Shown here piece after piece: positions 5,696 to 47,987 of a stretch of 64,000 nucleotides of DNA. Every line of letters starts with the position of its first letter. Position 1 is the stretch's first letter. The stretch comes from Saprospiraceae bacterium. Lineage in GTDB: Bacteria; Bacteroidota; Bacteroidia; Chitinophagales; Saprospiraceae. Both the position numbers and the translations under genes were made by a program. The stretch is from contig JAHBTU010000005.1 of the NCBI GenBank assembly GCA_019638455.1, positions 277,054 through 341,053 of the forward strand, written 5' to 3'. The notes under the pieces are model-generated. The model had not been told where the DNA came from. It was given only the letters and a program-made list of their open reading frames with translations, and searched no databases.

Positions 5696-5736
5696 CGAGT
5701 CTGTTGTGGGTTTTGGAAAATAGGATTTTTGAGGGT

Positions 5737-5826
5737 GCATTTCAAATTGCCGCAAGTAAAACTGAACGCTGTAACGATAAATGCAGGAATAGCGTTCCGG
5801 CGTACAAAAGCGACAATTTGAAATGC
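5737..5826. repeat. 90-bp nested palindromic element
   Basis: The outer arms gcatttcaaattg (5737-5749) and caatttgaaatgc (5814-5826) are perfect 13-bp complements, extendable to 17 bp with one mismatch. The inner arms are gaacgct (5764-5770) and agcgttc (5791-5797). Confidence 0.8.
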
Positions 5827-5930
5827 CCCCATTTTTAACCGTCGTTGCTCTGATGTTTTAGCACCAAAAGATGTGCCTTCACACCCGATGAGAGGTTTTA
5901 AAACAGTTCCTTACCTTTCGCCGCGATTAT

Positions 5931-6109
5931 TATACCCAGATTAAAGAGGATTTGAACCTGCCCGTTGGCAAGGCAGGGATTTCCTTGATTGATTTGCATG
6001 ATTTCCAAAGGATTGCGAGCACCGTTCGTTCAAAACCACCTTGTCCGACCCTTTACTCAGGGCTTGCCCGGCCAAGTGAAGCGGACGGGGCTGATTTGCG
6101 TCGACTATA
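5931..6109 (+). mobile_element. Rep1 interspersed repeat, copy A (about 180 bp, no TIR, TATA-bounded)
   Basis: Near-identical to 20484-20663, 43383-43562 and the reverse complement of 47807-47987. It begins tatacccagattaaag and ends gcgtcgactata. It ends 11 nt before the ATG at 6121. Confidence 0.85.
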
Positions 6110-6627: not shown

Positions 6628-7220
6628 TGCAGATAAAAAAAAGATGTTGGCCGCCGCCTGTCCGTTCGCGCTGGGCTGGTGCTTGGGTGGGCGGAATCGT
6701 GGGTTGCTGGTTGCTTCTGCTTGCTTGCAACGACCTAAAAGTGGAAAAACGTCAGGTGTTTACGCAGGACGATGTGGCGATAGAAGTCGGTCGCGATGTG
6801 GAGATTTTGTATTCGGACAGCGCCATCGTGCGGGTGCGGGTGACGGGGCCGCTGCTGCACAACTACTCTGACCGCGAAAACCCGCGACAGGAATTTCCCG
6901 AAGGTGTCAAGATTGATTTTTTGGAACCCGACCTCTCTGTGCGCAGTGTGCTGACGGCCAAAACTGCCGTGCGTTATCAGGAAAAAGGTCAAATCATCGC
7001 TCGTGACAACGTAGTGCTCGTGTCGGCGGAGGGTGAGAAGCTGGAGACCGAGGAATTGATTTGGGATGAGAAAACGGCGAAGATCTATACCGAAAAATTT
7101 GTAAAAGTGACCAAGCCTGGCGAGGTCATATACGGGTACGGCCTCGAAGCCGAGCAGGATTTCTCCTATTGGAAAATCACGGTGCCAAAGGGTCGCATCA
7201 AGGTGGAACAGCTGGATTAG
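6627..7220 (+). CDS. lptC: LPS export system periplasmic protein LptC
   Basis: ORF 6537..7220 trimmed to MQIKKR at 6627. It has an N-terminal anchor followed by EELIWDEKTAKIYTEKFVKVTKPGEVIYGYGLEAEQDF, which is LptC-like. Confidence 0.7.
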   Translation: MQIKKRCWPPPVRSRWAGAWVGGIVGCWLLLLACNDLKVEKRQVFTQDDVAIEVGRDVEILYSDSAIVRVRVTGPLLHNYSDRENPRQEFPEGVKIDFLEPDLSVRSVLTAKTAVRYQEKGQIIARDNVVLVSAEGEKLETEELIWDEKTAKIYTEKFVKVTKPGEVIYGYGLEAEQDFSYWKITVPKGRIKVEQLD

Positions 7221-7253
7221 GTGCTGAAATGATTGCTTCCGGTTGGCATCACC

Positions 7254-7376
7254 CACACTACCGGACATTTTCAAATTTGCCACGAAGTCACAAAGGCGCA
7301 AAGCAAAATACTCATTGATTTGCCGCATTTTGTGCCTTTGTGTCTTTGCAGCACAAAAATAATGTCCAGTAGTGTG
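7254..7376 (+). mobile_element. Rep2 MITE, copy 1 (123 bp, about 16-bp TIR)
   Basis: The TIRs are cacactaccggacatt and aatgtccagtagtgtg (15/16 complementary). The interior matches 43222-43324 and the reverse complement of 57443-57557. It lies 33 nt after the lptC stop. Confidence 0.85.
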
Positions 7377-7488
7377 GTTTTTTGCTCATATTCCGTCCCG
7401 TTGGGGCAAAAGTTCGGGACGACTCATGTTACTTGCGACAATTTGAACTGCACCCGTTGAAGGGGTGATTGGTTGCTCCCCCATGTCA

Positions 7489-8934
7489 CTATATGTTCAA
7501 CTGAAAATCGCTCGCCCCTTTACTCGCTTCCAAGCCCATCTTCTTGCCTTCTTCGACCATGCGCCCAAACGCGGCCTCGAATTCGTTGGGGATTTCCCCA
7601 TCCAGAATCGCCTCTCGTACAGCGGTCTTGATGATGCCTACCTCTTTCGAGGGCGAGATGCCGAAAGTTTTCATGATGACCTCGCCCGTGATGGGTGGCT
7701 GCCAAAGACGCAGGCGGTCGGATTCGCTCACCAAGGCCATGCGCTCTTTTAGGTATTCGTAGCCTTCGAGGTATCGTGCCATCTTGCGCGGGTTCTTGGT
7801 GGTGATGTCCGATTCGCAAAGTTTCATCAGGTCGTCAATATCAGGCCCGGCATCGAAAAGCAGGCGGCGCACCGCGCTATCGGTCACCTGCTCTTTGGTC
7901 AAGGAAATAGGGCGTAGGTGAAGACGCACCATTTTTTGGACATATTCGAGTTCGGCTCCGAGCGGTAGGCGGAGATTTCGGAAGATTTTGGGCGCCATGT
8001 TCGCGCCTACCCACTCGTGGCCATGGAAGGTCCAGCCAGTTTCCTTGTCGAAGCGTTTGGTGGCGGGTTTGGCGATGTCGTGCAGCAAGGCTGCCCAGCG
8101 CAGCCAGAGATTGTTGCTGCGGCGGCAGAGATTGTCGAGCACTTCGAGGGTGTGGTAAAAATTGTCCTTGTGGGCGCGTCCGGCGCGGTCCTCCACCCCT
8201 TGCAGCGCAGCCACTTCTGGAAGGATTATTTTCAGCAAGCCGCTGTCGAACAACAGGTTGAAACCTATGGAGGGTTGTTGCGTGAGCAGGATTTTCTCCA
8301 ACTCGGCGGCGATGCGTTCTTTGGAAATGATATGAATGCGAGTGCGGTGCCTTGCGATGCCCTCGAAGGTGTTGGGTTCTATGACGAAGCCCAACTGGTT
8401 GGCAAACCGAATGGCGCGGAGCATTCGGAGGGGGTCGTCGGAAAAGGTTTTGCCGGGGTCGAGCGGGGTTTTGATGATTTTTTGCTCCAAGTGTTCCAAC
8501 CCGTTAAACGGGTCAATGATTTGCCCGAAGGTGTCGTCGTTGAGGCTGACCGCCAGCGCGTTGATGGTGAAGTCGCGGCGGTTTTGGTCGTCTTCGAGCG
8601 TGCCTTCTTCCACGTCGGGCTTGCGGCTATCTTCCCGGTAGCTTTCCCGTCGTGCGCCGACGAACTCTATTTCCATGCCTTCGTGCCGGAGCATGGCCGT
8701 TCCGAATCGGCTGTAAAAAGCCACCTTGGGACGAGGCGACAGCTTGGAGGCGACTTGCTCGGCAAGCCGGATGCCGCTGCCAACGCACACGATGTCAATG
8801 TCTTTCGTTGGGCGGCCCAACAATCGGTCGCGCACATAGCCCCCCACGACATAAGCAGGCGCACCGATTTCGCGAGCGCAGCGACCGACGAGTTCAAATA
8901 TTTTTCGTTCGTAGGGAAGGATGGAGAAAAGCAT
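7489..8934 (-). CDS. CCA-adding tRNA nucleotidyltransferase / poly(A) polymerase family with HD domain
   Basis: 481 aa. GGYVRDRLLGRPTKDIDIV is the nucleotidyltransferase motif, RRDFTINA is present, and HD is supported by LLHDIAKP. Confidence 0.85.
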   Translation of the reverse strand: MLFSILPYERKIFELVGRCAREIGAPAYVVGGYVRDRLLGRPTKDIDIVCVGSGIRLAEQVASKLSPRPKVAFYSRFGTAMLRHEGMEIEFVGARRESYREDSRKPDVEEGTLEDDQNRRDFTINALAVSLNDDTFGQIIDPFNGLEHLEQKIIKTPLDPGKTFSDDPLRMLRAIRFANQLGFVIEPNTFEGIARHRTRIHIISKERIAAELEKILLTQQPSIGFNLLFDSGLLKIILPEVAALQGVEDRAGRAHKDNFYHTLEVLDNLCRRSNNLWLRWAALLHDIAKPATKRFDKETGWTFHGHEWVGANMAPKIFRNLRLPLGAELEYVQKMVRLHLRPISLTKEQVTDSAVRRLLFDAGPDIDDLMKLCESDITTKNPRKMARYLEGYEYLKERMALVSESDRLRLWQPPITGEVIMKTFGISPSKEVGIIKTAVREAILDGEIPNEFEAAFGRMVEEGKKMGLEASKGASDFQLNI

Positions 8935-9035
8935 CGTTTCTGGTTGCTTGTCCGCCGAGTTTTATGGTTAAAGGCGGGTTGATTCGCAGGGGCAGTCAGA
9001 AATCATCTCAAACGAAAAAAATTGCCTCAATCAAA

Positions 9036-10352
9036 TTATTTCTTCAAAAGTTCCCCATAAAGGTCGTACTCCTCCGCGCCCGTGATTTGCACGTCGGCAA
9101 AATCGCCGAGCCGGACGTAATTGCCTTCTGCTGGCACCAACACCTCATTGTCCACTTCTGGCGAATCGGATTCGGTGCGCCCGACGTAGTATTTTCCTTC
9201 CTTGCGGTCGAAAAGGGTCTTGAGCACTTGCCCGATTTTAGCCTGATTTTTTTCAAAGGAAATTTCTTGCTGCACCTCCATCAGCCGATTGGCGCGTTCT
9301 TCCTTCACCGCTGGGGGCACATCGTCGGCCATTTCGTGGGCGCGGGTGTTTTCCTCATGCGAGTATTGAAAAACGCCGACACGCTCGAATCGTTGTGTCT
9401 GCACGAAATCCAGCAATTGCTCGAAATCGTCGGCTGTTTCGCCGGGATGCCCCACCAAAAAGGTGGTGCGCAGCGCCACGCCCGGCACCTTTGCCCTTAT
9501 TTTTTCCAGCAATTCCTCCGTCTCGGTGCGGGTGATTTGGCGGCGCATCAGGTTCAGCACGTTGTCGCTGGCGTGTTGGAGCGGTATGTCGAGGTAGTTG
9601 CAAATCTCCTTTCGCTCGGCCATCACGTCGAGTATTTCGAGGGGGAATTTCGAGGGGTAGGCATAGTGCAGGCGTATCCATTCGATGCCCTCCACGTCGG
9701 CGAGCGCGTGGAGCAGGCGTGGCAACTCGCGGGTTTTGTAAATGTCAAGGCCGTAATAGGTGAGTTCCTGCGCGATGAGCAGGAGCTCTTTCACGCCGCG
9801 CCGCGCCAGATTTTTTGCCTCAAAAACCAGTTCTTCCACAGGGCGGCTGATGTGTTTGCCGCGCATGAGCGGGATGGCACAGAAGGAACAGGTGCGATTG
9901 CAGCCCTCCGAAATTTTCAGGTAGGCGTAGTGGGGTAGGGTGGTGATTTGGCGCTCGCCGAGCAACTCGTATTTGTAATCGGCTTCAAGGCGGGCGAGCA
10001 GCGCAGGCATTTCGAGGGTGCCAAAAAAAGCGTCCACTTCTGGGATTTCTGTTTCGAGGTCGTCCTTGTAGCGTTGCGAGAGGCAGCCCGTGACGTAGAG
10101 CTTCTCGATGCCGCCCGATTTTTTGATGTCGGCATATTCCAAAATCGTGTCAATGCTCTCCTGCTTGGCCACGTCAATGAAGCCGCAAGTGTTCACAATC
10201 ACCACGTTGGCCTCCAATTCGGGCGCATCGTGCGTCACCTCGAAATCGTTGCCGCGCAATTGCGTGATGAGATTTTCGCTGTCCACCAAGTTTTTGGAGC
10301 AGCCGAGCGTGACGACGTTGATTTTATCTTTGCGAATGGTTTTCGTTTTCAT
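9036..10352 (-). CDS. rimO: ribosomal protein S12 methylthiotransferase RimO
   Basis: Trimmed to MKTKTIRKDKINVVTLGCSKN at 10352. The radical-SAM motif is CNRTCSFCAIP, and there is a C-terminal TRAM-like domain. Confidence 0.9.
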   Translation of the reverse strand: MKTKTIRKDKINVVTLGCSKNLVDSENLITQLRGNDFEVTHDAPELEANVVIVNTCGFIDVAKQESIDTILEYADIKKSGGIEKLYVTGCLSQRYKDDLETEIPEVDAFFGTLEMPALLARLEADYKYELLGERQITTLPHYAYLKISEGCNRTCSFCAIPLMRGKHISRPVEELVFEAKNLARRGVKELLLIAQELTYYGLDIYKTRELPRLLHALADVEGIEWIRLHYAYPSKFPLEILDVMAERKEICNYLDIPLQHASDNVLNLMRRQITRTETEELLEKIRAKVPGVALRTTFLVGHPGETADDFEQLLDFVQTQRFERVGVFQYSHEENTRAHEMADDVPPAVKEERANRLMEVQQEISFEKNQAKIGQVLKTLFDRKEGKYYVGRTESDSPEVDNEVLVPAEGNYVRLGDFADVQITGAEEYDLYGELLKK

Positions 10353-10499
10353 GCCTTGATGGAGCGATGCCCTTGACGACGAGTGTGCAATTTGATGAAT
10401 CAATGGCTGGGTGAATAGTGTGGGCGTGCGCTCGCTTTTGAGCGCAAAATTACGAGAACACACCCGCTTGCAAGCGCGAGAAATCAAGAACGTTCAAAA

Positions 10500-10985
10500 A
10501 TGTCGAAGCAGGAACCTATAAAAGTGCCCAGGTTCGAGGAAGCAGCCGGGTTTTACACCACCGCGAAACAGTCCGGGCTGATGCGGAAAATTCGCGCCGC
10601 CAACTCCAAAGTGGAGGTCGCCGTCCGCAAGGTGCTTTGGCACTTTGGGTATCGCTATCGGCTGCACTACAAAAAAGTGCCGGGCAAGCCCGACATCGTT
10701 TTTGTGCGGTGGAAAATCGCCATTTTCATTGATGGAGACTTTTGGCACGGTTACGGCTGGGAAGAAAACAAAGATAAAATCAAGAAGAATCGCGGCTTTT
10801 GGGTGCCTAAAATCGAGCGCAACATGCAACGCGACGGAGAGGTGGATGCAGCCTTGCAAGCAATGGGCTGGAAGGTGCTCCGAATTTGGGAGCACGAGGT
10901 GAAAAAGGAATTTGGTGCCACCATCGTCAGGATAATGCGTTTCATCGAATATCACACGGGTGAGCCAGATGCTTTTCGGCTGTGA
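10500..10985 (+). CDS. vsr: very short patch repair endonuclease
   Basis: 161 aa. The pattern RKIRAANSKVEVAVRKVLWHFGYRYRLH...GKPDIVF...IAIFIDGDFWHG is typical of Vsr. Confidence 0.85.
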   Translation: MSKQEPIKVPRFEEAAGFYTTAKQSGLMRKIRAANSKVEVAVRKVLWHFGYRYRLHYKKVPGKPDIVFVRWKIAIFIDGDFWHGYGWEENKDKIKKNRGFWVPKIERNMQRDGEVDAALQAMGWKVLRIWEHEVKKEFGATIVRIMRFIEYHTGEPDAFRL

Positions 10986-11189
10986 GGCATCCATGAAAAT
11001 CTCACCTCTAAAATTCCGATAGACGTTCTATTCTTGCTTATCGCCGTTTACCTTTGCCGCCTTTCTATACTCAACGCAAATTGGTTTCGAGAGCCGATAC
11101 TTGACGATCATTTGATTTTTCAATCGAATCAATCGGTTTAATCTTCAAAATCGAATTATTCGACTGTAACACAACTGCCACACGCCTTC

Positions 11190-11750
11190 ATGACACAGCA
11201 CCAACTCCTCGAACGACTCGATGCCGAATTGAAAAGGCTCATGGAAACAGTGCGTACCCAACTCGCACTCACCCCGCCCGAAGCATTGCAGGTGCGCCCA
11301 AGCCCTGAGAAATGGAACGCGCTGGAATGTTTCGCCCATCTCAACGCACAATTCGACTACTTCCTGCCACGCATCGAATTGGCCATTCACAAAGCCAAAG
11401 CCCGTTCGTGGTCGCCCGTGGAGGAGCGCAAGTCCAACGCGCTGGGGCGAAAAGCCATCCGTCGGGCCGACCCACTCAATATGGGCAAGATTCGCCGAAA
11501 AAGCCACAAACGCATCCATCCCAAGTATTTGGAAGTGCGGCAGCACGAAGTCAAAGCCTTCCTTATCAACTCTGAAATGTTGCTCCGCCTGCTCCAACAA
11601 GCCCGCGAGGTGGATTTGAACAAGGCGCGGGTCGTGCACTTCCGCTGGCCGCATTTCAAATTCTTGCTCGGCGACTTGCTCGAATACATGGTGCTGCACG
11701 CGCACCGACACACCTTGCAGGCACAGGCCGCCGCTCCCAAAATCGCTTGA
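11190..11750 (+). CDS. DinB-family (DinB_2-like) protein
   Basis: 186 aa. EKWNALECFAHL ... MVLHAHRH is the histidine-triad pattern of DinB-like four-helix bundles. Confidence 0.75.
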   Translation: MTQHQLLERLDAELKRLMETVRTQLALTPPEALQVRPSPEKWNALECFAHLNAQFDYFLPRIELAIHKAKARSWSPVEERKSNALGRKAIRRADPLNMGKIRRKSHKRIHPKYLEVRQHEVKAFLINSEMLLRLLQQAREVDLNKARVVHFRWPHFKFLLGDLLEYMVLHAHRHTLQAQAAAPKIA

Positions 11751-11839
11751 CGAAGGCATGGAATGACCGCTTTGGGCGCATGGGTAAAAAAAATCAACCC
11801 TACCATGCAGCCGCGCCACACCTCAACAGAGTACATTTG

Positions 11840-12015
11840 CCATCGCTACGGTGCCGATGTTCGAGTAACAGAGGATAATAGGGAACCCGGTGAGAATCCG
11901 GGGCAGTCCCCGCTGCTGTAAGCCTCACAGTTGTTTTTGGCATGAAGCCACTGCCGCGCTCAAAGCGAGGCGGGAAGGCGCCCAAAACGAGGCGAGCCAG
12001 AAGACCTGCCGTTGC
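11840..12015 (+). promoter_or_regulatory. cobalamin (B12) riboswitch
   Basis: It contains aatagggaacccggtgagaatccggggcagtccccgctgctgtaagc, gccactg, gggaaggcg and the B12 box agccagaagacctgcc. It lies directly upstream of a TonB-dependent receptor. Confidence 0.85.
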
Positions 12016-12128
12016 GACATACACATTCGGGCTTTCGGAGGAAAAGCCGGGTGATGATGCGATGTGCACAATGTGCCAATCGAAGGCGGGCATTCCACAC
12101 AAACGAATGCCCCCCGTCAAATTGGCGC

Positions 12129-14159
12129 ATGAAAGCTCCTCCCATTGCTGCCCGTCTTCTCCGTCGAAGACCCTCCATCTTAAAATCGGGCAGCGTGCAT
12201 CGGATATTCCACACCATCTCGCGTTTTTCAATTCGCAGCAAAACAGCCGCCGGCAATTTTTGCCTCCTCGCGCTCTGTGGGTTTGGGGCCAACCTCAACG
12301 GACTGCACGCGCAGGCCGATACCTTGCTCGCGCTGCCCTCCCCCGAAATCACCGCCCAGCACTTGCGCCGCCAACCCGCCGGAGCACAATCAACCACCCT
12401 CGATAGCACCTGCCTTGCCCTCCACCAAACTGAAAACGTGGCTGACGCGCTTTGGAAAAAAAGCGGGATGTATGTGAAAAGTTACGGCTTGGGCAGCTTG
12501 GCCACCACCTCTGCCCGGGGCGGCAGCGCGGGTCAAACTGCCATTGTTTGGAACGGTCTTCCGCTGCAAAGCCCCATGCTCGGCCAATTGGATTTTTCGC
12601 TATTGCCCCTTGTTTTCGTGGACGAAATGACCCTGCAATATGGCGGCAACAGCGCGGGTTGGGGCAGCGGAGCGATTGGTGGAGCCGTGCTGCTCGAAAA
12701 CAAATCACAGTTCATCACAGGCCTTTCCGCCCGCCTCAACGTGGCTGCGGGCAGTTTTGGTTGGCAGCACCACGCCACCACCCTTCGCTACGGCAATGGC
12801 CGCTGGGCTGGCTCCACGCGCATTTTTTTTGAAAAAGCCAACAACGATTTCACTTTTCAAATTCACCCCGACTTGCCGGAGACAAAACAAGAACACGCCG
12901 CTTTGCAGCAACAGGGCGTGTTGCAGGAATTTTTTTTGAAAACAAGGCCCAACGAAGAATTTGCCCTCCGGGTTTGGCTCCAAGACATTGCCCGCCAAAT
13001 CCCCCCGACCATCGTGCAAAACCGAAGCCAAGCCACACAAGCCGATGCCCTGCTCCGCACCACTTTGCACTGGAAAAAAACAAGCGGGCTGCTGACGTTG
13101 CAAACGCGGGCTGCCTTTTTCACCGAGACGCTGGACTACCGCGACCCGCTCATAGGACAAGCGTCGCTCAGCAAATTCCACACTTGGATGGGTGAAGCAG
13201 AGGCGACGCGATGGCTGGGGAGACAATCGAGGTTGCAAGGCTCCGTCATGCAGACCTACACCCGCGCTTCCACCCCCGCCTACGAAGCCTCGCCCCGCCA
13301 AACCCGCACCGCTGTCTTTCTCGCCATGCGGCGGGAAGGCCATCGTTGGCAAGCACAATTGGACGGGCGCATGGAATGGGTGGATGGCCGCTGGGTGCCC
13401 TTCACGCCCAGCGTGGGCGCAGAAGCCGAGGCGCTGCGTTTTTTAGAAATCAAGGGAAAAATCGCTCGCAACTACCGCTTGCCCACTTTCAACGACCTCT
13501 ACTGGCGCCCCGGCGGCAACCCCGAACTGCTGCCCGAAAGCGGTTGGAGCCAAGACGTGGGGTTGGTCTTCCACGGAAAAGCCAAGCAGTTGCGATGGTC
13601 TTATTCTGCCACAGGATTCCATCGCCGCATCCGCAACTGGCTCCTTTGGGCGCGTAAGGACGGTCAATTCTTTTTTTCGCCGCAAAACATCGCCGAAGTG
13701 TGGAGCCGAGGCATCGAGAGCCGCCTCGATGTGGCGAGCGCGTTTTCTTTTGGCGAAATAATCTTGACCGGGGGCCACGATTGGGTGCGCTCCACCAATG
13801 AATTGGCTGTGAGCAATCCGCGCATTGAGCAAGGGGCACAGTTGTTCTATGTGCCGACGCACCGTGTTTTTGCGGAGGTCTCCGTTCGGGTCAAACATTT
13901 CCAAATCACGGGTTTCCAACAATTTACTGAAAAAGTAACAGGCATCAACGAGGACGTGCCTAGTTTCAGCATTGGCAGCCTGCGCATACAGTACGCCCGC
14001 CCTTTTGGCGACTGGAACGGAGCCATTTTTCTGCACATAGAAAATTTGTGGGACGCGGATTACCAAGTCATCGAACGCCGCCCCATGCCGGGGCGACATT
14101 TCCGATTGGGCTTCAACGCGGGTTTCTCGACCCGCAAACACACCAATTCTTCATCATAA
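12129..14159 (+). CDS. TonB-dependent receptor, BtuB-like (B12-riboswitch controlled)
   Basis: The plug region is VADALWKKSGMYVKSYGLGSLATTSARGGSAGQTAIVWNGLPLQSP and the barrel ends in GFNAGF. The start is uncertain: the ORF opens at 12012 inside the riboswitch, so I used the ATG at 12129. Confidence 0.8.
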   Translation: MKAPPIAARLLRRRPSILKSGSVHRIFHTISRFSIRSKTAAGNFCLLALCGFGANLNGLHAQADTLLALPSPEITAQHLRRQPAGAQSTTLDSTCLALHQTENVADALWKKSGMYVKSYGLGSLATTSARGGSAGQTAIVWNGLPLQSPMLGQLDFSLLPLVFVDEMTLQYGGNSAGWGSGAIGGAVLLENKSQFITGLSARLNVAAGSFGWQHHATTLRYGNGRWAGSTRIFFEKANNDFTFQIHPDLPETKQEHAALQQQGVLQEFFLKTRPNEEFALRVWLQDIARQIPPTIVQNRSQATQADALLRTTLHWKKTSGLLTLQTRAAFFTETLDYRDPLIGQASLSKFHTWMGEAEATRWLGRQSRLQGSVMQTYTRASTPAYEASPRQTRTAVFLAMRREGHRWQAQLDGRMEWVDGRWVPFTPSVGAEAEALRFLEIKGKIARNYRLPTFNDLYWRPGGNPELLPESGWSQDVGLVFHGKAKQLRWSYSATGFHRRIRNWLLWARKDGQFFFSPQNIAEVWSRGIESRLDVASAFSFGEIILTGGHDWVRSTNELAVSNPRIEQGAQLFYVPTHRVFAEVSVRVKHFQITGFQQFTEKVTGINEDVPSFSIGSLRIQYARPFGDWNGAIFLHIENLWDADYQVIERRPMPGRHFRLGFNAGFSTRKHTNSSS

Positions 14160-14170
14160 AATTCAAACAA

Positions 14171-15142
14171 ATGCAACACCTTTTGACTTCTGTCGCACTA
14201 TTGCTGGCCTTCGGCGCACACGCGCAAACAGTGGCCAACTTTGAAAATTTCAACCTCCCGCCCAATACTTTTGTCAACAATGCCGGAGCGGCGGGCGCGT
14301 TCACCAGCGCCGATATCGAGTTGCCCAACAATTACAATGCGCAGTGGATGAGCTGGGACGGTTGGGCGATTTCCAACCGAACGGACGATACGACTCCGGG
14401 CTTTCTCAACGAATCGAGTGCCGCTGCGGGCAAAGGAGCCAACGGCTCTGCCACCTACGCGGTCAGCTATGTCTTCGGTGCCTCCATCATGCGGCTGACA
14501 GGCGCGACAGCAGGCGGGAAAGTGCTCGGCTTGTACGTCACGAACAACACCTACGCCTATTTCAGCATGAAGGACGGCGATGCTTTCGCCAAAAAATTCG
14601 GCGGTATCACGGGCAACGACCCCGATTTCTTCCTGCTCACGGTGAAAAAATACCTCAACGGCCAACTTGGCACCGACAGCGTCAATTTTTATCTGGCCGA
14701 CTACCGCTTCGCCAACAATGCGCAGGACTACATCGTGAAAGATTGGGCCTGGCTCGACCTCAGCAGTCTGGGCAACGCCGATAGCCTGCAATTCACGCTT
14801 ACATCCAGCGATGTGGGTGCCTTTGGCATGAACACGCCCGCCTACTTCTGCGTGGATGATGTGACGACGGAGGATGTGCTTTCGCAGGACGATGTTGTTT
14901 TGAATGCCCTGTCGTTCGATGTCTTTCCCAACCCGACCAGTGATTTTTTGAACGTCCGCTTGGCGGAAGATGCTGATAACGCCATTGTCCAAATCTTCGA
15001 TTTGCAAGGGAAATTAGTGTCTGAAAAAACGATTTCTGGCCCTCAGCCTCGTCTCGACACACGCCCGTTGCCAGCGGGTGCTTACTTCATTCGGGTAGGG
15101 CAAGGTGGCAAAATTGGCGTGGGGAAATTCATCAAGGAATGA
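14171..15142 (+). CDS. DUF4465-like protein with T9SS type A C-terminal sorting domain
   Basis: Trimmed to MQHLLTSVALLLAFGAHAQ, a signal peptide. FENFNL...WDGWAISNRTD...ATYAVSY...YVTNNTYAYFSMKDGDAFAKKF matches DUF4465 as I recall it. The C-terminus FDVFPNPTSDFLNV...YFIRV is a T9SS CTD. Confidence 0.7.
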   Translation: MQHLLTSVALLLAFGAHAQTVANFENFNLPPNTFVNNAGAAGAFTSADIELPNNYNAQWMSWDGWAISNRTDDTTPGFLNESSAAAGKGANGSATYAVSYVFGASIMRLTGATAGGKVLGLYVTNNTYAYFSMKDGDAFAKKFGGITGNDPDFFLLTVKKYLNGQLGTDSVNFYLADYRFANNAQDYIVKDWAWLDLSSLGNADSLQFTLTSSDVGAFGMNTPAYFCVDDVTTEDVLSQDDVVLNALSFDVFPNPTSDFLNVRLAEDADNAIVQIFDLQGKLVSEKTISGPQPRLDTRPLPAGAYFIRVGQGGKIGVGKFIKE

Positions 15143-15176
15143 TTAGGTGTGGCATGGCCGCTCATGCCACACCTAA
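15143..15176 (+). terminator. perfect 14-bp-stem hairpin after the B12 operon
   Basis: ttaggtgtggcatg - gccgct - catgccacacctaa, starting 1 nt after the stop at 15142. Confidence 0.6.
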
Positions 15177-15256
15177 TCAATGAGGTTTGGCGGGTTTCAG
15201 GTTTGCGTACATTTGCCCCGCGAACCCGTCAAACCGAAATCCGTCAGCCTCACAAC

Positions 15257-15556
15257 ATGTACACTCTCCTCCTTTCCATCATCATCGGCCTATTCGTGGC
15301 CATGTTGTTTCTGAACCTTTATTTCCGCGCCAAGGTGTTCAAGGTCTATGGTGTGCTGGTGCGCAACAAGGTTGAGTTCGGCGCGGCTCACATTTTCAAT
15401 CGGCAAAAATTGGAAGAGGAAATCCTGCCGAAATACCCGCAGTTCCGCAACGAAATCGAGTCGTTCATCCGGCATATAAAATACTCCATCAAAATGGCGA
15501 GCGTGCTGATTGCGCTGATTACGGCGTTTGGGGCGGTGTTGATGTATTACAGGTAG
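15257..15556 (+). CDS. hypothetical small membrane protein
   Basis: Trimmed to MYTLLLSIIIGLFVAMLFL. It has two hydrophobic helices and its own terminator immediately downstream. Confidence 0.45.
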   Translation: MYTLLLSIIIGLFVAMLFLNLYFRAKVFKVYGVLVRNKVEFGAAHIFNRQKLEEEILPKYPQFRNEIESFIRHIKYSIKMASVLIALITAFGAVLMYYR

Positions 15557-15557
15557 A

Positions 15558-15583
15558 GCGAACTTTCCGGTTCGCCTTTTTTT
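15558..15583 (+). terminator. Rho-independent terminator
   Basis: gcgaac - tttccg - gttcgc followed by cttttttt. Confidence 0.7.
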
Positions 15584-15707
15584 ATCGTTTTCTCTACATC
15601 TTATGCCCTGCTCAGTGTTTTCACCAAGCAGCTTCACACTCGGGTGCAAATGACTTCCCTTCCATACCTTTGCCACCCAACGAACAACCAATAACCAACA
15701 ACCAACC

Positions 15708-16688
15708 ATGCGAATAGCCCTCCTCGGCACCGGCCACCTCGGCAAAATCCACCTGAAATGTATCCTCGCCACCGAGTGCTGGGAGCTCGCCGGATTCTAC
15801 GACCCCGACGACAAGAACGCCGCATCCGCCATTGCCCAATATGGCGCGAAACGCTACAAATCTTTGGACAAACTTTTGGCCGACGTGGATGCGGTGGACA
15901 TCGTGACACCCACGCCCTCGCATTACAAACTCGCCGCCAAAGCCATGCGAGCGGGCAAGCACGTTTTTATCGAAAAACCCGTCACGGAGACCGTCGCCGA
16001 AGGTCGAAAATTGCTGCAACTTGCTGAACAGCAAGGCGTGAAAGTGCAAGTAGGCCACGTCGAGCGGTTCAATCCCGCCTATCTCGGCATCAAGGACATG
16101 GTGCTCAACCCGATGTTTATCGAGAGCCACCGACTGGCGGCATTCCAGCCGCGCGGCACGGAAGTATCGGTCATTCTCGACCTGATGATTCACGACCTCG
16201 ACCTCGTGCTGCATTTGGTCAAATCGCCCGTCGCGAGGGTCAGCGCCAGCGGCGTGGCAGTGCTGAGCCACACGCCCGACATCGCCAACGTGCGCCTCGA
16301 ATTCGCCAACGGCGCGGTGGCGAACCTCACGGCCAGCCGCATTTCCATGAAGCAAATGCGCAAAATGCGCCTCTTCCAGCCCGACCACTACCTGAGTCTC
16401 GATTTTTTGGAAAAAAATGCCCAAATCGTGCGCCTTTTTGCGCAAGATGCTTCCAACCTCCCGCCACAGGAACAACTCATGGAATTCGAGACCAATGCGG
16501 GCAAAAAATGGCTCCACCTCTCCATGCCCGAAACCCCGCCCGTGAACGCGATTCAGCGCGAGTTGGAAACCTTTCACGAGGCCATTGCCACCGACACCGA
16601 GCCTGTGGTGACGCTGCGCGACGGCTTCGAGGCATTGAGGGTGGCGCATCGAATTTTGAAAGAAATAAAGGCGCGGCAAGAAAGATAG
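15708..16688 (+). CDS. Gfo/Idh/MocA family oxidoreductase
   Basis: 326 aa. The N-terminal Rossmann motif is MRIALLGTGHLGKIH, followed by EKP (HVFIEKPV). Confidence 0.9.
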   Translation: MRIALLGTGHLGKIHLKCILATECWELAGFYDPDDKNAASAIAQYGAKRYKSLDKLLADVDAVDIVTPTPSHYKLAAKAMRAGKHVFIEKPVTETVAEGRKLLQLAEQQGVKVQVGHVERFNPAYLGIKDMVLNPMFIESHRLAAFQPRGTEVSVILDLMIHDLDLVLHLVKSPVARVSASGVAVLSHTPDIANVRLEFANGAVANLTASRISMKQMRKMRLFQPDHYLSLDFLEKNAQIVRLFAQDASNLPPQEQLMEFETNAGKKWLHLSMPETPPVNAIQRELETFHEAIATDTEPVVTLRDGFEALRVAHRILKEIKARQER

Positions 16689-16704
16689 GGGGCGGCATGC
16701 CATC

Positions 16705-19443
16705 TCACCGCACCACCGTCACGCTGCCCTCATACTGCAACTCCCTTTGGTCCACAAATCGCACGAGTGCGTACCAAGTGAACACCCCTGTCATTTTTTG
16801 GCCTTTGTAGGTGCCGTCCCAGCCGAGAATGGGTTCGTTGAGCGGGAAATCCCTGCGCTCAAACACAAGGCTGCCCCAGCGGTCGAAGACACGCAGCAGC
16901 GAAAGTTGCTCTGCTGCTGGGCCAGAGAAGCCGGTGAAATAGTCGTTGGGGTAGTTCTTGTCAGGCGCGAACACATTGGGGAAATAGACGGGGCGCTTGT
17001 TGTTGACGCGGATATTGACCGTGTCGTAGGCGACGCAGCCATCTTGGTCGGTTATTTTCACCACATAAATCTGGCTGCTGATAGCTGTGGCGCTTGGGTT
17101 GGGCGATGTGGGGTCGCTCAGTCCGAGCGGTGGTGTCCATTCAAAAACGACGGGTCGGAAGGGCGGTGCGGTCACGGTGTTGATATTGATGGTAAAGCCG
17201 AGGTCGAGCAATGTGTCGGATGGCTCGGCTGCGACGAGGAGTGCTGGCGGCTGGCCGACGGTGGCAAAAACGGAGTCAACACAGCCCGCCGAATCCTTCA
17301 CCTTCACCCAATAATTGCCCGCAGGCAAGTTGGTGAGCGGGCTGGCGGAGAAATAATTGATGCCGTCCGTGCTGTATGAATAGGCGGGGCGTCCGCCCAC
17401 GCCTGCCACATCTATTTGGCCAGTGGGCACACCGTTGCAGAGCAAATCCACCACCCTCAGCAAGTTGATACCCACATCGCCCGGCTCTTCTATGAACACG
17501 CCGCCCGTGATGGTGCAGCCGTTGCCGTCGGTGACGGTGACACCGTATTGCCCCGGCTCCAGCCCATCCACTTCTTGGTCTGTCCGGCTGTTCGACCATT
17601 GGTAAGTGTAGTTGCCCACACCTCCCGAAGGCTCCACGATGGCAGCGCCGTCGTCGGTGCCAAAGCAAGAAATGTTCATGGTGTCAATCACCAATTGAAG
17701 CGGCGGGTTGTCGGTCACTGTCACGTTGAAAACACCCTGACACAGCACGTCGTCCACCGCGGTGATGGTGTAAATGCCTGCGGCGTAGCCTCCTTGCGAA
17801 TTGTTGGGCACGTTGCCGCTGCCCCAATTGAAGAGAATGGGAGGCTTTCCATTCGTGATGTTGAGCGTAATCACGCCGTTGGCATCACCCGTGCAGAGCG
17901 GCTTGGTCACGATGGCATCGGCGGTCAGCACCCGTTCGCTCACGTCAATGCTGAAATCCGATTCGCAGTTGTTGGCATCGCGGATGCGCAACGTATAGGT
18001 GCCCACGCCGAGGTTGTCGAGGAAATTGCTGGAAGTGAAAGGCCCACTGTTCCAACTGTATTGGTAGGGTGGTGTGCCGCTGGTGATGTTGCTGATGGTA
18101 ACTCGCCCGTTGGTGGCACCGTTGCAGTCGGGCGCGGCGATGAGTTTGTCAATTTCCACATCTGGGAAAATGGTGGCGTTCAGGATTTTGGTCACTTTAC
18201 AGCCGAGGTTGGTTTCCAAGGTCAACACGATGGGATTTTGGCCGGGGTTGTTGAACGTCACGTTGTGTGGTCCCGGTCCAGAGGCGGTTTGGGGCGATGC
18301 GTTCGCGCCAAAGCTCCAGCTCCAGCTGGTGATGCTGCCGATGGGGAAAGAGGAAGCGTCAATGACTTGCACTGGCACACCGAGACAGACTGCCGACGGG
18401 ATGGTGTTGAAATCAGCGGTGGGGCCAAGAAATTGACCTGAACCGCCAAACTCGATGGAGAATCCGTTGCCTGTGGAGGTGAAATTGTTGACGACCAATG
18501 CGTATGTCTCTCCCACCTGCATTTGAAGGGGGGCGAGGAAATTGTCTTTTCCCGGCCCGCAGCTGGCGTTTTCCGCCAAATCGGTGGAGCCGGCTCGAAG
18601 GCCCGTTGGCCCCATGCAAGGGCTGGGATAGAAGAAGTCGCCCGCGGCCATACATCGCACCACTTGTTTGTTTTGGCAGTTGCCGATACCATTGGGCAAG
18701 CGATAGACCACAAAATCGAGGTCGTCGGTGATGTTGAGCGGGGTGAGGGTGAATTCCAAGGTGCCGGGTTGGGCACAAGTCCACACGAACCAAGTAGAGT
18801 TGGTTTCGTAGTTGCCCGGCCCACCGTTGGAGAAACAGGTTGCGTCGTTCAGCTCGGCGATATTCTGTCCGGCGCCCACCACGCTTTGTACCACGAAAGG
18901 CGATTTGTCGCATAAGATGGCGGCTTGTGGGCAGTCAGATTGGGGGTCAACAGGTGGGTTGTAGTTGTTGATGCAAATTTGGAAAGTGCCCGTTTGCCCA
19001 TTCGCCCCCTGAATCCGCACCAAATAAGTGGAACCCACGAACAAACCGCCTTGATAACCTTCCACTACGTTGACCCCGACAGGAGTGGTCTGACATTCAA
19101 GTTGATTGATGGTGCCGCCGCAATTGCCAAAATAGATGGCCAGTTGGGGCCGCTGCAAAGTGCCGCCGGGGGCTTGAGGGGTGGCGCCGCGCACCGTGAT
19201 GGTCACATCAGTTGCCAATGCCGTGAAGGCAAACCACACATCGTTTTGTGTGTTGCCGAAGCAGGTTGCAGGCCCATAAGCCGATGGCGTGGCCCCCACG
19301 TTGGTGTAAGCGCCCGCCGGGCTGCAATAATTAAGTACGTTGGGAATGATGATGGGGTTGGTACATTCGTCGTTGGCAGGCTGCGCCCATGCCAGCGTGG
19401 AAAAGGTCAGAGAAGTGATTATCGAAAGTGCAAGTTCTCTCAT
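16705..19443 (-). CDS. large secreted adhesin-like protein with SprB-type repeats, PKD-like domain and T9SS type B (CHU_C) sorting domain
   Basis: Trimmed to MRELALSIITSLTFSTLAWAQ. It has repeated C..NGxI motifs (SprB repeat-like). The C-terminus FPNVFAPDKNYPNDYF...FDRWGSLVFE...GWDGTYKGQ...GVFTWY is the gliding-motility C-terminal domain. Confidence 0.85.
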   Translation of the reverse strand: MRELALSIITSLTFSTLAWAQPANDECTNPIIIPNVLNYCSPAGAYTNVGATPSAYGPATCFGNTQNDVWFAFTALATDVTITVRGATPQAPGGTLQRPQLAIYFGNCGGTINQLECQTTPVGVNVVEGYQGGLFVGSTYLVRIQGANGQTGTFQICINNYNPPVDPQSDCPQAAILCDKSPFVVQSVVGAGQNIAELNDATCFSNGGPGNYETNSTWFVWTCAQPGTLEFTLTPLNITDDLDFVVYRLPNGIGNCQNKQVVRCMAAGDFFYPSPCMGPTGLRAGSTDLAENASCGPGKDNFLAPLQMQVGETYALVVNNFTSTGNGFSIEFGGSGQFLGPTADFNTIPSAVCLGVPVQVIDASSFPIGSITSWSWSFGANASPQTASGPGPHNVTFNNPGQNPIVLTLETNLGCKVTKILNATIFPDVEIDKLIAAPDCNGATNGRVTISNITSGTPPYQYSWNSGPFTSSNFLDNLGVGTYTLRIRDANNCESDFSIDVSERVLTADAIVTKPLCTGDANGVITLNITNGKPPILFNWGSGNVPNNSQGGYAAGIYTITAVDDVLCQGVFNVTVTDNPPLQLVIDTMNISCFGTDDGAAIVEPSGGVGNYTYQWSNSRTDQEVDGLEPGQYGVTVTDGNGCTITGGVFIEEPGDVGINLLRVVDLLCNGVPTGQIDVAGVGGRPAYSYSTDGINYFSASPLTNLPAGNYWVKVKDSAGCVDSVFATVGQPPALLVAAEPSDTLLDLGFTININTVTAPPFRPVVFEWTPPLGLSDPTSPNPSATAISSQIYVVKITDQDGCVAYDTVNIRVNNKRPVYFPNVFAPDKNYPNDYFTGFSGPAAEQLSLLRVFDRWGSLVFERRDFPLNEPILGWDGTYKGQKMTGVFTWYALVRFVDQRELQYEGSVTVVR

Positions 19444-19714
19444 GGTGTGTCGTGTGTTTACTCGGTGGACAACAATGGCCCGAGCAGAGCCTAAAAAAGA
19501 TGACATAAAAACGCTCGCAAGGCATCAATGCTTGCCCATGCGCGTGCGGTTCGTCTGCGCATAGACGCTTTGAATGTCTTTTTTGTTGGCTGGGAAATGT
19601 GTCAAAATTTTCTTAAAAAACTGTCAATCAGGCATTATCCCTTCCACAACGCCTAAATGAAACGCCAAAACGCCGCAAATTAGCAAAATACTGTTCCCGG
19701 CAAAAATTCTACTT

Positions 19715-20476: not shown

Positions 20477-20483
20477 AATGGGT

Positions 20484-20663
20484 TATACCCAGATTAAAGA
20501 GGATTTGAACCTGCCCGTTGGCAAGGGAGGGATGCTCTTGATTGATATGTATGATTTTCAAAGGATTGCGAGTGCCGTTCGTTCAAAACCATCTTGTCAG
20601 ACCCTGTATTCAGGGGCTTGCCCGGCCAAGTGAAGCGGACGGGGCTGATTTGCGTTGACCATA
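20484..20663 (+). mobile_element. Rep1 interspersed repeat, copy B (most diverged)
   Basis: Same about 180-bp element, starting 8 nt after the pssA stop. It differs from the other copies by substitutions only, including ggcagg to ggaggg in the 5' hairpin. Confidence 0.85.
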
Positions 20664-20667
20664 AAAT

Positions 20668-20805
20668 ATGGGTTGAAGGGAGGGCTGTTGTTGGTGCCCT
20701 TGCCAACAACCTGTGCGCGGGCTACCCAACGAAGGCCGATATTCTTCTTTGGGTGCCTACTCCGTTGCTTGTTATTACTGGGATGCCAACACCCCTTCAA
20801 CCCAT
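20668..20805. repeat. 138-bp element bounded by perfect 13-bp inverted repeats
   Basis: atgggttgaaggg (20668-20680) is the reverse complement of cccttcaacccat (20793-20805). It contains the inner hairpin gttgttgg-tgcccttg-ccaacaac (20687-20710) and ends 15 nt before the purS ATG. Confidence 0.75.
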
Positions 20806-25418: not shown

Positions 25419-25479
25419 AGTAGGTTGAATTGGCAGGGCTAAATCAGGCATTAGCCTAAAGCTATTCCACATGATAAAA

Positions 25480-26385: not shown

Positions 26386-26583
26386 TTTGAAAGGTTTAAA
26401 AGTGAGCAAGATTCTTTACAATTATTCAACAGCAATTGTACGACAGGAAGGCTACCTGTTTTCTATCACTTTCGGTAGAGTTAGTTTAGTTTAAAAAGAT
26501 TAAGGCGGCGTACTTTTTTGTATTCAACCCCTCATTCGCGCATTCAATAAGCCTATGTAAAACGGATTTATTTTCTTTGCCTC

Positions 26584-29511: not shown

Positions 29512-29570
29512 GGCGAATATCGGAGTCTCTTTAAGCCCCTCCATTGCCACAAACTCCGTAGTTTGCACCC

Positions 29571-43382: not shown

Positions 43383-43562
43383 TATACCCAGATTAAAGAT
43401 GATTTGAACCTGCCCGTTGGCAAGGCAGGGATTTCCTTGATTGATTTGCATGATCTCCAAAGGATTGCGAGCACCGTTCGTTCAAAACCACCTTGTCAGA
43501 CCCTGTACTCAGGGGCTTGCCCAGCCAAGTGAAGCGGACGGGGCTGATTTGCGTTGACTATA
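43383..43562 (+). mobile_element. Rep1 interspersed repeat, copy C
   Basis: Full-length copy. Its last base abuts the hutH stop codon (43563-43565 on the minus strand). Confidence 0.85.
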
Positions 43563-47806: not shown

Positions 47807-47987
47807 TATAGTCAACGCAAATCAGCCCCGTCCGCTTCCATTTGGCCGGGCAAGCCCCTGAGTACAGGGTCTGACAAGGTGGTTTTGAACGAACGGTGCT
47901 CGCAATCCTTTGGAAATCATGCAAATCAATCAAGGAAATCCCTGCCTTGCCAACCGGCAGGTTCAAATCCTCTTTAATCTGGGTATA
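47807..47987 (-). mobile_element. Rep1 interspersed repeat, copy D (inverted)
   Basis: Reverse complement of the about 180-bp element. It lies 99 nt upstream of the monooxygenase start, in the same orientation as that gene. Confidence 0.85.

What the first reader, a model, noticed from the sequence alone, without database searches (positions are those of the whole stretch)
5931..6109. Rep1: a 180-bp interspersed element in four copies with no terminal inverted repeats, always bounded by TATA...TATA
The copies are at 5931-6109 (+), 20484-20663 (+), 43383-43562 (+) and 47807-47987 (-). They are near-identical and differ by substitutions only, with no indels that I can see.

Every copy starts tatacccagattaaag and ends g(c/t)(c/t)gac(t/c)ata. 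The flanks are unrelated. This fits a TA or TATA target, but the ends are not inverted repeats, so it is not a classical MITE.

The internal features are a 6-bp hairpin cctgcc-cgttggcaa-ggcagg, a second hairpin ccctg-tact-caggg, and a possible 7-bp long-range pairing tttgaac/gttcaaa.

All copies are intergenic and hug gene ends: 11 nt before an ATG (6121), 8 nt after a stop (20476), abutting a stop (43563), and 99 nt before an ATG (47707). Three of the four point toward the downstream gene. No recombinase is encoded in the window.

The element could be a non-autonomous element of a TIR-less family (IS200/IS605-, IS110- or IS91-like ends), or a dispersed ncRNA or promoter module.
Basis: seen in the sequence. 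Interest (0 to 1): 0.65.

Follow-up and report, generated by a model that had tools for sequence, protein, structure and literature searches.

The report
TA-inserting mini-transposon with hidden inverted ends
The four 180-base repeats are copies of a small non-coding jumping element, very abundant and recently active in an uncultured activated-sludge bacterium (Saprospiraceae); it is a new family of a familiar kind of selfish DNA, unusual in that its common form lacks matching inverted ends.

Summary
There are four copies, 91-98% alike, with sharp common boundaries TATACCC...GAC(T/C)ATA and unrelated flanks.

The element is mobile. All four copies are missing from the same sites in a relative that is about 95% identical. 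At copy 1 the relative's contig skips exactly 177 nt and keeps one TA, so the element inserts at TA and TA ends up on both sides.

Sludge metagenomes hold roughly 100-300 copy-equivalents, and variation is confined to the interior. There is no Rfam match, no significant fold, and no protein relative in two of the six reading frames; 1-nt indels break the frames, so it is non-coding.

The 180-nt form has no detectable terminal inverted repeat (TIR). A 124-nt variant does: it lacks a 56-nt two-hairpin module that sits 11 nt from the right end, and it carries a 27-bp imperfect TIR (18/27 matches). I therefore read the family as a TA-specific MITE (miniature inverted-repeat element) of the IS630/Tc1-mariner type, as are Correia and RUP. 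In its dominant form the right repeat is split by the module.

An IS607-like serine-transposase mechanism is the main rival. It would also give no TIR and a shared 2-nt exchange site, and would use the one-stranded GATT motif array.

The parts
5931..6109 (+). Rep1 copy 1 (179 nt including TA at both ends). It lies 11 nt before the ATG at 6121.
   Evidence: A relative's contig in runs X1 and X7 joins 5930 to 6108, skipping 177 nt. The skipped ends are TA..TA and 2 letters fit both sides, so this is an empty site with a single TA.
20484..20663 (+). Rep1 copy 2 (180 nt). It belongs to the majority subfamily and ends GACCATA. It lies 8 nt after a stop codon. Uniquely, it is flanked by a 12-14-nt direct repeat, CATAAAAT(AT)GGGT.
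   Evidence: The relative's 28.7-kb contig goes from 20484 to 20805 with 35 other letters between. Copy 2 and the adjacent 138-bp inverted-repeat unit are therefore both absent there.
43383..43562 (+). Rep1 copy 3 (180 nt). It abuts the stop codon of the histidine ammonia-lyase gene (43563-45056, minus strand).
   Evidence: It is absent from relative GCA_026129545.1 (L001), where the flanks are contiguous as ...CCCAGCA|TCAAGCG. Contigs of three runs break sharply at 43383 and 43562.
47807..47987 (-). Rep1 copy 4 (181 nt, reverse orientation). It lies 99 nt upstream of the monooxygenase gene (46559-47707, minus strand).
   Evidence: It is absent from the relative, which has TA followed by 29 unrelated nt at this site.
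43383..43424 (+). Conserved left end (42 nt) of copy 3. It holds the flanking TA, the terminal TACCCAGATTAAAG and the GGATTTGAACC motif.
   Evidence: No variant reaching a 5% share was seen in this stretch among about 150 contigs of run X1, and summed depth is highest here.
43391..43466 (+). Array of GATT motifs, all on the element's + strand, at element positions 9, 19, 48, 57, 61, (70), 81. One more lies at position 164 near the right end.
   Evidence: GATT occurs 8 times on the element's + strand (copies 1 and 4; 6-7 in copies 2 and 3) and never on the other; about 0.9 per 180 nt is expected. Only 1 of 2000 shuffles has any 4-mer at 8 or more. Phasing at 10.5 nt is weak (Rayleigh p about 0.02-0.05).
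43496..43551 (+). 56-nt two-hairpin module (TCAGACCCTGTACTCAGGGG...CGGACGGGGCTGATTTG). It separates the terminal 11 nt of the right end from its inner part and is absent from the 124-nt form.
   Evidence: Contigs in X1 (5) and X5 (2) run from 43495 straight into CGTTGACTATA plus a flank, and one in X10 from 43496 into GTTGACTATA. Protein P0127 from another copy reads across the same joint. The module has its own 8-nt inverted ends (TCAGACCC/GGGGCTGA) and TTG on both sides (sequence).
43531..43562 (+). Conserved right end (32 nt), GAAGCGGACGGGGCTGATTTGCGTTGACTATA, including the flanking TA.
   Evidence: It is invariant at the 5% level in run X1. It is identical or 1 mismatch away in all window copies.

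Best explanation
Rep1 is a non-coding, non-autonomous DNA transposon (a MITE-type element) of an uncultured Saprospiraceae bacterium from activated sludge.

**What is shown.**
- It inserts at a TA dinucleotide, and TA then stands on both sides of a roughly 175-nt body.
- It has multiplied to the order of 100-300 copies.
- It has moved since this genome diverged from a relative that is about 95% identical. All four window copies are absent from that relative, which has copies elsewhere.

**What is inferred.**
- The family's basic architecture is the 124-nt form, which carries 27-bp imperfect terminal inverted repeats (TIRs).
- The 180-nt form seen in the window is that element plus a 56-nt two-hairpin module lodged 11 nt from the right terminus. 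The module splits the right repeat, so the element looks TIR-less.
- Movement is by a transposase supplied in trans. Most likely this is a TA-duplicating DDE enzyme of the IS630/Tc1-mariner type, as proposed for Correia and RUP elements. It would read the conserved terminal 42 and 32 nt.
- The GATT motif array may be part of its binding platform.
- Any effects on neighbouring genes are by-products, not the element's purpose.
For: **Mobility and target.**
- There is a clean empty site with a single TA at copy 1, seen in two runs.
- Copies 2, 3 and 4 are also absent at orthologous sites.
- The relative carries its own copy at another locus (L007:10085-10263, 91.6% identical).

**Abundance.**
- Summed contig depth is 7,000-20,000 against about 62 for single-copy flanks. 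Between 147 and 203 contigs were laid, each at about 60x.
- The window itself holds 4 copies in 64 kb.
- Four more copies in the likely own assembly were called as hypothetical proteins.

**Ends under constraint.**
- All variants at 5% share or more fall between element positions 43 and 148. The left 42 nt and right 32 nt are invariant.

**Non-coding, and no evidence that it is an RNA.**
- Rfam gives 0 hits at E<=10, and fold z-scores are -0.97 and 0.06.
- 1-nt indels break every reading frame in 3 of 5 copies.
- phmmer against 1.84 billion proteins finds only element-derived ORFs.

**Hidden TIR.**
- The 124-nt form gives 18 of 27 end-anchored matches, or 14 of 23 beyond TATA (binomial p = 3e-4).
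- Only one deletion register (10 of 2109 modelled deletions) gives this, and it is the register observed.
- This form recurs in X1, X5, a diverged host (X10) and the likely own assembly.
Against: - No autonomous copy or transposase was found, so the enzyme class is inferred only from the TA target and the weak TIR.
- The dominant and evidently active 180-nt form has no significant TIR (8/23, p = 0.2). A symmetric DDE transpososome should disfavour this.
- The TIR of the short form was noticed after the fact. It rests largely on one 7-nt inverted match that falls in register.
- In the diverged X10 relative, the left motif changes (GATTTGAGC) without a visible compensating change in its inverted partner.
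- Copy 2 is flanked by a 12-14-nt direct repeat, not just TA.
- The copy-3 empty site is one base shorter than a TA-duplication model predicts.
- Several copies end TATC rather than TATA.
- The GATT motifs are all on one strand, including the one at the right end. That is not what inverted-end recognition predicts.
Confidence: 0.55

Rival explanations
1. Rep1 is a non-autonomous derivative of an IS607-like element and is moved by a serine transposase. The enzyme would coat a one-sided array of short subterminal motifs (the GATT repeats in the left 85 nt). It would then exchange strands across a 2-nt sequence shared by the element termini and the target, here TA instead of GG. No inverted ends are needed, and the two TAs are not a true duplication.
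For: - The 180-nt form has no TIR.
- The same dinucleotide sits at both junctions, and once in the empty site.
- GATT occurs up to 8 times on one strand and never on the other, mostly within 9-84 nt of the left end and roughly 10-nt phased.
- The short form keeps the whole left end but only 11 nt of the right end.
- In IS1535, TnpA binds four helically phased direct motifs 20-60 bp from the left end, and the right end is a poor binder. IS607-family elements lack TIRs and duplications and exchange at a shared GG (PMC6188088).
Against: - Most IS607-family elements terminate in GG, not TA.
- No serine transposase or longer element was seen.
- The helical phasing is only weakly significant.
- The in-register TIR of the 124-nt form is unexplained by this model.
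- I did not find any report of a high-copy non-autonomous IS607 derivative.
Confidence: 0.2
2. Rep1 is moved as single-stranded DNA by an HUH (Y1/Y2) transposase of the IS200/IS605 or IS91 kind. The enzyme would recognise same-strand hairpins or motifs at both ends.
For: - The ends are asymmetric and the motifs lie on one strand.
- A hairpin lies 26 nt inside the left end, and another lies 20 nt inside the right end.
- All five DNA copies that have a co-directional neighbour gene point the same way as that gene.
Against: - The left flanks share no 4-5-nt target.
- The empty sites do not fit a model of insertion next to TATA without duplication. Copy 1 is 2 nt off and copy 3 is 3 nt off.
- The right-end hairpins are absent from the multi-copy 124-nt form.
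- The left hairpin is not kept in the diverged X10 variant.
- Copy 4 is inverted within one 64-kb stretch. This argues against replication-strand-directed insertion.
Confidence: 0.07
3. Rep1 is mainly a functional module, either a small RNA gene or a portable promoter or terminator. It would be kept by selection next to genes, with mobility secondary.
For: - All copies are intergenic and close to gene ends.
- Their orientation follows the neighbouring genes in 4 of 4 informative cases.
- Element-containing contigs occur in a metatranscriptome of the same sample.
Against: - There is no Rfam hit at E<=10 and no fold beyond shuffles.
- The scan found no sigma-70-type promoter and only one weak terminator-like hit. 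That scan does not cover Bacteroidota promoter types.
- Stems vary without compensation.
- The same genes do without the element in a 95%-identical relative.
- RNA contigs carry no strand or end information and may contain DNA.
Confidence: 0.05

Closest known systems
Correia elements (NEMIS) of Neisseria and RUP of Streptococcus pneumoniae: TA-duplicating MITEs attributed to IS630/Tc1-mariner-type transposases
   Same: - Length of 100-180 bp, non-coding and intergenic.
- Dozens to hundreds of copies, polymorphic between close strains.
- TA at both junctions and a single TA at empty sites.
- Length variants within the family.
- No autonomous partner evident for Correia (from my own knowledge).
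   Different: - Those elements have clear TIRs of about 26 bp. Here the abundant form has none, and only the 124-nt form shows an imperfect 27-bp repeat (18/27).
- There is no sequence similarity beyond short motifs that I recalled from memory (TATAG..GATTAA..AAATCAG). That resemblance was not tested.
- The host phylum is different (Bacteroidota).
IS607 family (IS607, IS1535, ISC1926; serine transposase TnpA), PMC6188088
   Same: - No terminal inverted repeats.
- The same dinucleotide at both termini and in the unoccupied target.
- Short direct motifs in a roughly helical phase within about 80 nt of one end, with a weaker other end.
   Different: - Rep1 is 180 nt and has no genes.
- The dinucleotide is TA, not GG.
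- It has a very high copy number.
- No cognate serine transposase has been identified.
Other MITE families of Saprospiraceae and Porphyromonas noted earlier in this scan (hairpin or palindromic, IS5-type)
   Same: - The same host family and habitat.
- High density of small intergenic mobile repeats, with pile-ups of different families at the same spacers. Rep1 sits next to Rep2 in the window, in L007 and in X7 contigs.
   Different: - Those elements are long palindromes with clear TIRs and 3-9-bp duplications.
- Rep1 is not palindromic and uses TA.

Membership tests
MITE (generic: short, non-coding, multi-copy, target duplication, TIRs) | Short, non-coding and multi-copy, with insertion polymorphism | tested here: met
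   - The element is 124-181 nt long.
- Frames are broken by 1-nt indels.
- No protein relatives were found.
- Depth indicates about 100-300 copy-equivalents.
- All four sites are empty in a relative.
MITE (generic) | Terminal inverted repeats | tested here: inconclusive
   - 180-nt form: 8/23 matches beyond TATA, p = 0.2.
- 124-nt form: 14/23 matches, p = 3e-4, and in the only register that gives this result.
IS630/Tc1-mariner-derived MITEs (Correia, RUP) | Insertion at TA with TA duplication | tested here: met
   - The copy-1 empty site keeps one TA, and the skipped 177 nt is bounded TA..TA.
- All five DNA copies start TA-TACCC.
- The copy-3 site is off by 1 nt.
- Some copies end TATC.
IS630/Tc1-mariner-derived MITEs (Correia, RUP) | Ends matching those of an IS630-family insertion sequence in the same or a related genome | not testable with these tools
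- The genome contigs and metagenome-contig scans found nothing.
- No longer form was seen among the contigs of run X1.
IS607 family (serine transposase) | No TIR; the same dinucleotide (usually GG) at the termini and the target; no duplication | tested here: inconclusive
   The geometry fits, but the dinucleotide is TA, not GG. Sequence alone cannot tell a 2-nt exchange site from a 2-nt duplication.
IS607 family (serine transposase) | Multiple short subterminal motifs that bind TnpA | tested here: inconclusive
   GATT is enriched on one strand (up to 8 versus 0; 1 of 2000 shuffles), with weak 10.5-nt phasing (p about 0.02-0.05). Protein binding was not tested.
IS607 family (serine transposase) | Cognate tnpA (MerR-type HTH plus serine recombinase domain) | not testable with these tools
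IS200/IS605-derived elements (PATE) and REP/REPIN | Insertion 3' of a fixed 4-5-nt site without duplication | tested here: not met
   - The left flanks share nothing beyond TA.
- A TATA-target model mispredicts both usable empty sites.
IS200/IS605-derived elements (PATE) and REP/REPIN | Similar subterminal hairpins at both ends | tested here: not met
   - The multi-copy 124-nt form lacks the right-end hairpins.
- End folds are not or only weakly better than shuffles (z -0.5 and -2.0).
IS110/IS1111 (bridge-RNA recombinases) | Insertion into one specific target sequence of about 10-14 nt | tested here: not met
   Flanks are unrelated in the five DNA copies, and flank consensus agreement across dozens of contigs is only 0.4-0.6.
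Known RNA families (Rfam 15) | A covariance-model match | tested here: not met
   No hit at gathering score in the window except a cobalamin riboswitch elsewhere. No hit at E<=10 on copy 3.

The most novel reading that the evidence does not exclude
The abundant 180-nt form is truly mobilised without inverted ends. Two routes are possible. In the first, an IS607-like serine transposase exchanges at TA, which would make Rep1 the first high-copy non-autonomous element of that class. In the second, the enzyme needs one complete end plus only about 11 nt of the other. In either case the one-stranded GATT array would serve as the platform on which the enzyme assembles.
Probability: 0.2. Interest if true: 0.6.

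Novelty: new variant of a known kind. Interest (0 to 1): 0.4.

Why it matters
- **Genome plasticity.** The element makes up roughly 1% of this genome, and every copy in the window differs in presence between strains that are 95% identical. It is therefore a major and currently active source of change in an abundant wastewater bacterium. It is also a practical cause of assembly breaks in these MAGs (metagenome-assembled genomes).
- **Mechanism.** An evidently successful element whose right inverted repeat is interrupted, or absent, asks how much of an end a TA-specific transposase really needs. It also raises the question of whether a serine transposase can drive MITE-like bursts.
- **Gene effects.** Insertions land 0-11 nt from start and stop codons, so they may alter expression of neighbouring genes. 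This was not shown here.

Tried and rejected
No whole-genome copy count or master-copy search was possible.

**Searches that returned nothing**
- Exact-pattern scans of genome contigs, metagenome contigs and viral contigs gave 0 loci.
- blastn against plasmids and phages gave no match.
- Look-ups of the window's own proteins, and of the four hypothetical proteins with KF734_ locus tags that are translated from other Rep1 copies (P0124-P0127; three looked up), failed in the look-up of encoding contigs. The host assembly could therefore not be walked.
- Earlier findings of this scan hold no look-alike of Rep1.
- Literature searches found no description of this element, and none of IS607-derived MITEs.

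**Hypotheses rejected**
- tRNA-like origin of GGATTTGAACC: ARAGORN found no tRNA, and the T-arm pairing fails.
- Coding remnant of a transposase:
  - phmmer of the open frame +0 found only element ORFs.
  - A padded search with the internal ATG ORF (MIFKGLRAPF...) found nothing.
- Structured RNA: Rfam in E-value mode and folding of both strands were negative.
- Terminal direct repeat: not significant in this host's version. It is 12/14 in the diverged X10 version, known only from loose-end strings.

**Searches for a master copy or new insertions**
- Internal break-points in run X1 contigs showed only the 124-nt variant, a few truncated or diverged copies and singletons.
- I looked for relative-specific Rep1 insertions across window positions 7.6-43.2 kb and 48.6-64 kb, hoping to catch an empty site in the window itself. 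None was found.

Full report
**1. Observation**

They are 179-181 nt long. Copies 1, 3 and 4 are 97-98% alike, and copy 2 is about 91% identical to them.
- Probes of 32 nt from either end hit only these four sites at up to 3 mismatches, and never in 100 shuffles.
- The flanks are unrelated.
- One detail is wrong: there are 1-nt indels. Copy 1 lacks a G and copy 4 has an extra G.

**2. Host and data limits**

Neighbouring proteins place the window in an uncultured Saprospiraceae bacterium (Bacteroidota) from activated sludge.
- Pattern scans of the genome, metagenome and viral collections returned nothing.
- The window's own genes are not on record for contig look-up.

Evidence from elsewhere therefore comes from three sources:
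- Logan contigs of sludge runs, laid on the window.
- A relative that is about 95% identical, GCA_026129545.1, and similar Logan contigs (loci L001-L010).
- Four hypothetical proteins with KF734_ locus tags from an NCBI Saprospiraceae MAG, probably the window's own assembly. They are translations of other Rep1 copies.

**3. It is mobile, and the target is TA**

In runs X1 and X7 a relative's contig (about 5% diverged in the flanks) joins 5930 directly to 6108. It skips 177 nt with ends TA..TA, and two letters fit both sides. This is a clean empty site...GATTAT-TA-CTTG..., so one of the two TAs bounding copy 1 belongs to the target.

The other three copies are also missing from the relative:
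- Copy 3: the flanks are contiguous (...CCCAGCA|TCAAGCG), one base shorter than a TA model predicts.
- Copy 4: the relative has TA followed by 29 unrelated nt.
- Copy 2: it is missing together with the adjacent 138-bp inverted-repeat unit, and 35 other nt stand in their place.

The relative is not free of the element. It has a 91.6%-identical copy at another locus (L007:10085-10263). Contigs at its depth (about 60x) end in Rep1 by the dozen.

**4. Abundance and constraint**

- In X1, single-copy flanks have depth about 62-66. The element sums to 7,000-8,000 in its middle and about 20,000 in its most conserved 25 nt, with 147-203 contigs laid.
- If one organism carries them all, that is about 100-300 copies. 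This agrees with 4 copies per 64 kb in the window.
- Contig boundaries are sharp at the T of TATACCC and the last A of GACTATA in three runs.
- All variants at 5% share or more lie between element positions 43 and 148. The left 42 nt and right 32 nt are invariant. That pattern is expected when only copies with intact ends propagate.

**5. Not an RNA family, not coding**

- Rfam gives nothing for the element at gathering scores or at E<=10 on copy 3.
- Neither strand folds better than shuffles.
- The named hairpins vary without compensation. The first hairpin is not kept in a diverged relative (run X10).
- One frame is open for 49-60 codons, but 1-nt indels shift it in 3 of 5 copies.
- phmmer against 1.84 billion representative proteins finds only ORFs called on other copies.
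- A search with the internal ATG-started ORF found nothing.

**6. Anatomy**

- **No TIR in the 180-nt form.** There are 8/23 end-anchored matches beyond TATA, p = 0.2.
- **A 124-nt form exists.**
  - It consists of positions 1-113 joined to CGTTGACTATA.
  - It recurs with different flanks in X1 (5 contigs), X5 (2) and the diverged host in X10.
  - It also recurs in one of the translated copies, P0127 (KF734_12395).
- **The 124-nt form has a TIR.**
  - The left end and the reverse-complemented right end align without gaps at 18 of 27 positions: TATAnnCAnnnnAAnGnGGnTTTGAAC.
  - That is 14/23 beyond TATA, p = 3e-4.
  - Of 2109 modelled deletions, only 10 reach this score. All 10 share one register, and it is the observed one.
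- **The 56-nt module.**
  - The 180-nt form therefore equals the 124-nt form plus a 56-nt module (43496-43551 in copy 3) lodged 11 nt from the right terminus.
  - The module holds both right-hand hairpins and has its own 8-nt inverted ends (TCAGACCC/GGGGCTGA), with TTG on each side.
  - It could be a nested insertion. Alternatively, the short form could be a microhomology deletion. I favour the first because of the register argument and the cross-host spread, but this is inference.
- **The GATT motifs.**
  - GATT occurs up to 8 times on the element's + strand (in copies 1 and 4) and never on the other. The window-wide rate is 0.87 per 180 nt, and 1 of 2000 shuffles has any 4-mer at 8 or more.
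  - The sites are at 9, 19, 48, 57, 61, 70, 81 and 164, with weak 10.5-nt phasing (Rayleigh p about 0.02-0.05).

**7. Mechanism**

Shown: insertion at TA with TA on both sides, recent activity, conserved ends, and no coding capacity.

Inferred: mobilisation in trans by a TA-duplicating DDE transposase of the IS630/Tc1-mariner type, as proposed for Correia and RUP elements. The grounds are the TA target and the short form's inverted ends.

The weak points are these:
- The abundant form has a split or absent right repeat.
- No partner element was seen.
- Copy 2 has a 12-14-nt flanking direct repeat.
- Some copies end TATC.

The main rival is an IS607-like serine transposase. That family has no TIRs. 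It exchanges across a dinucleotide shared by the termini and the target (GG). It also binds helically phased direct motifs 20-60 bp inside one end, while the other end is weak (PMC6188088). This fits the 180-nt form and the GATT array well. Against it stand the TA in place of GG, the unexplained in-register TIR, and the lack of any identified enzyme.

Other models fare worse:
- HUH single-strand models fail on the empty sites and on the dispensable right-end hairpins.
- IS110 fails on target specificity.
- A purely functional RNA or promoter module has no positive support, although copies do follow the orientation of co-directional neighbour genes in 4 of 4 cases.

**8. Verdict**

Rep1 is a real, abundant, recently active non-autonomous element. 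It is a new family of a well-known kind, TA-inserting MITEs. Its unusual feature is a dominant form with asymmetric ends, whose mobilising enzyme remains unknown. Interest is moderate.

Noticed in passing
window 5725-5830: A second small repeat lies 100 nt upstream of copy 1. It is about 106 nt long with 13-nt perfect inverted ends (GCATTTCAAATTG / CAATTTGAAATGC). The same relative contig also skips it (5724 to 5831, 6 letters fitting both sides). Its depth is 10-30 times that of the flanks in sludge runs, so it looks like a classical TIR MITE.
   Followed up: partly
window 7254-7384, 43222-43324, 57435-57557; L007:10263-10340: The Rep2 family (TIR MITE) repeatedly sits directly beside Rep1. 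It lies 58 nt upstream of copy 3. It abuts the 3' end of the relative's copy (GACTAT|CAATGAGAATTTTGCTTTGCG) and does the same in three X7 contigs. It also follows the short copy translated in P0127. Either the two families share safe-haven spacers or one targets the other.
   Followed up: partly
window 20470-20483 and 20660-20676: Copy 2 alone is bracketed by a 12-14-nt direct repeat, CATAAAAT(AT)GGGT. The repeat spans the upstream gene's stop codon and the first bases of the neighbouring 138-bp inverted-repeat unit (20667-20804). In the relative, that unit is replaced by a 35-nt version. A 2-nt TA model does not explain this.
   Followed up: partly
L007:19492-19577 (minus strand): An 86-nt spacer between two genes of the relative starts TATACACAGATTAAAGAC and also carries CGTTGGC. 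It therefore shares the first 17 nt of Rep1 but little else. It may be an old relic or a sister family with the same left terminus.
   Followed up: no
window 29518-29536, 61093-61102, 50935-53056, 25416-26752: There are further strain differences against the X1 relative. It has 1628 extra nt between the SNF2 helicase gene and the next gene, and 981 extra nt at 61093-61102. The low-GC restriction-modification islet (50935-53056) is replaced by 63 nt. The stretch 25416-26752 is replaced by 187 nt. The contents of the inserts were not seen.
   Followed up: no
window 11832-12027: A cobalamin riboswitch (RF00174, 112.9 bits) lies upstream of a 715-aa ORF. It is an ordinary feature.
   Followed up: no
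window 48083-48488: A perfect 2 x 203-nt tandem duplication lies at the 3' end of the short mfd gene, just beyond copy 4. Other first-stage notes already flagged it.
   Followed up: no
run X10 (organism B), laid on window 43416-43515: A diverged Rep1 relative occurs in another organism. Its left end is ACCTGGATTAAAGCGGATTTGAGCCAAC and its right end is TTGATTTGAGCTAACTATA. In that version, a 14-nt stretch near the two ends matches at 12/14 in direct orientation. A medium-length form, with the first right-hand hairpin only, also exists there.
   Followed up: partly
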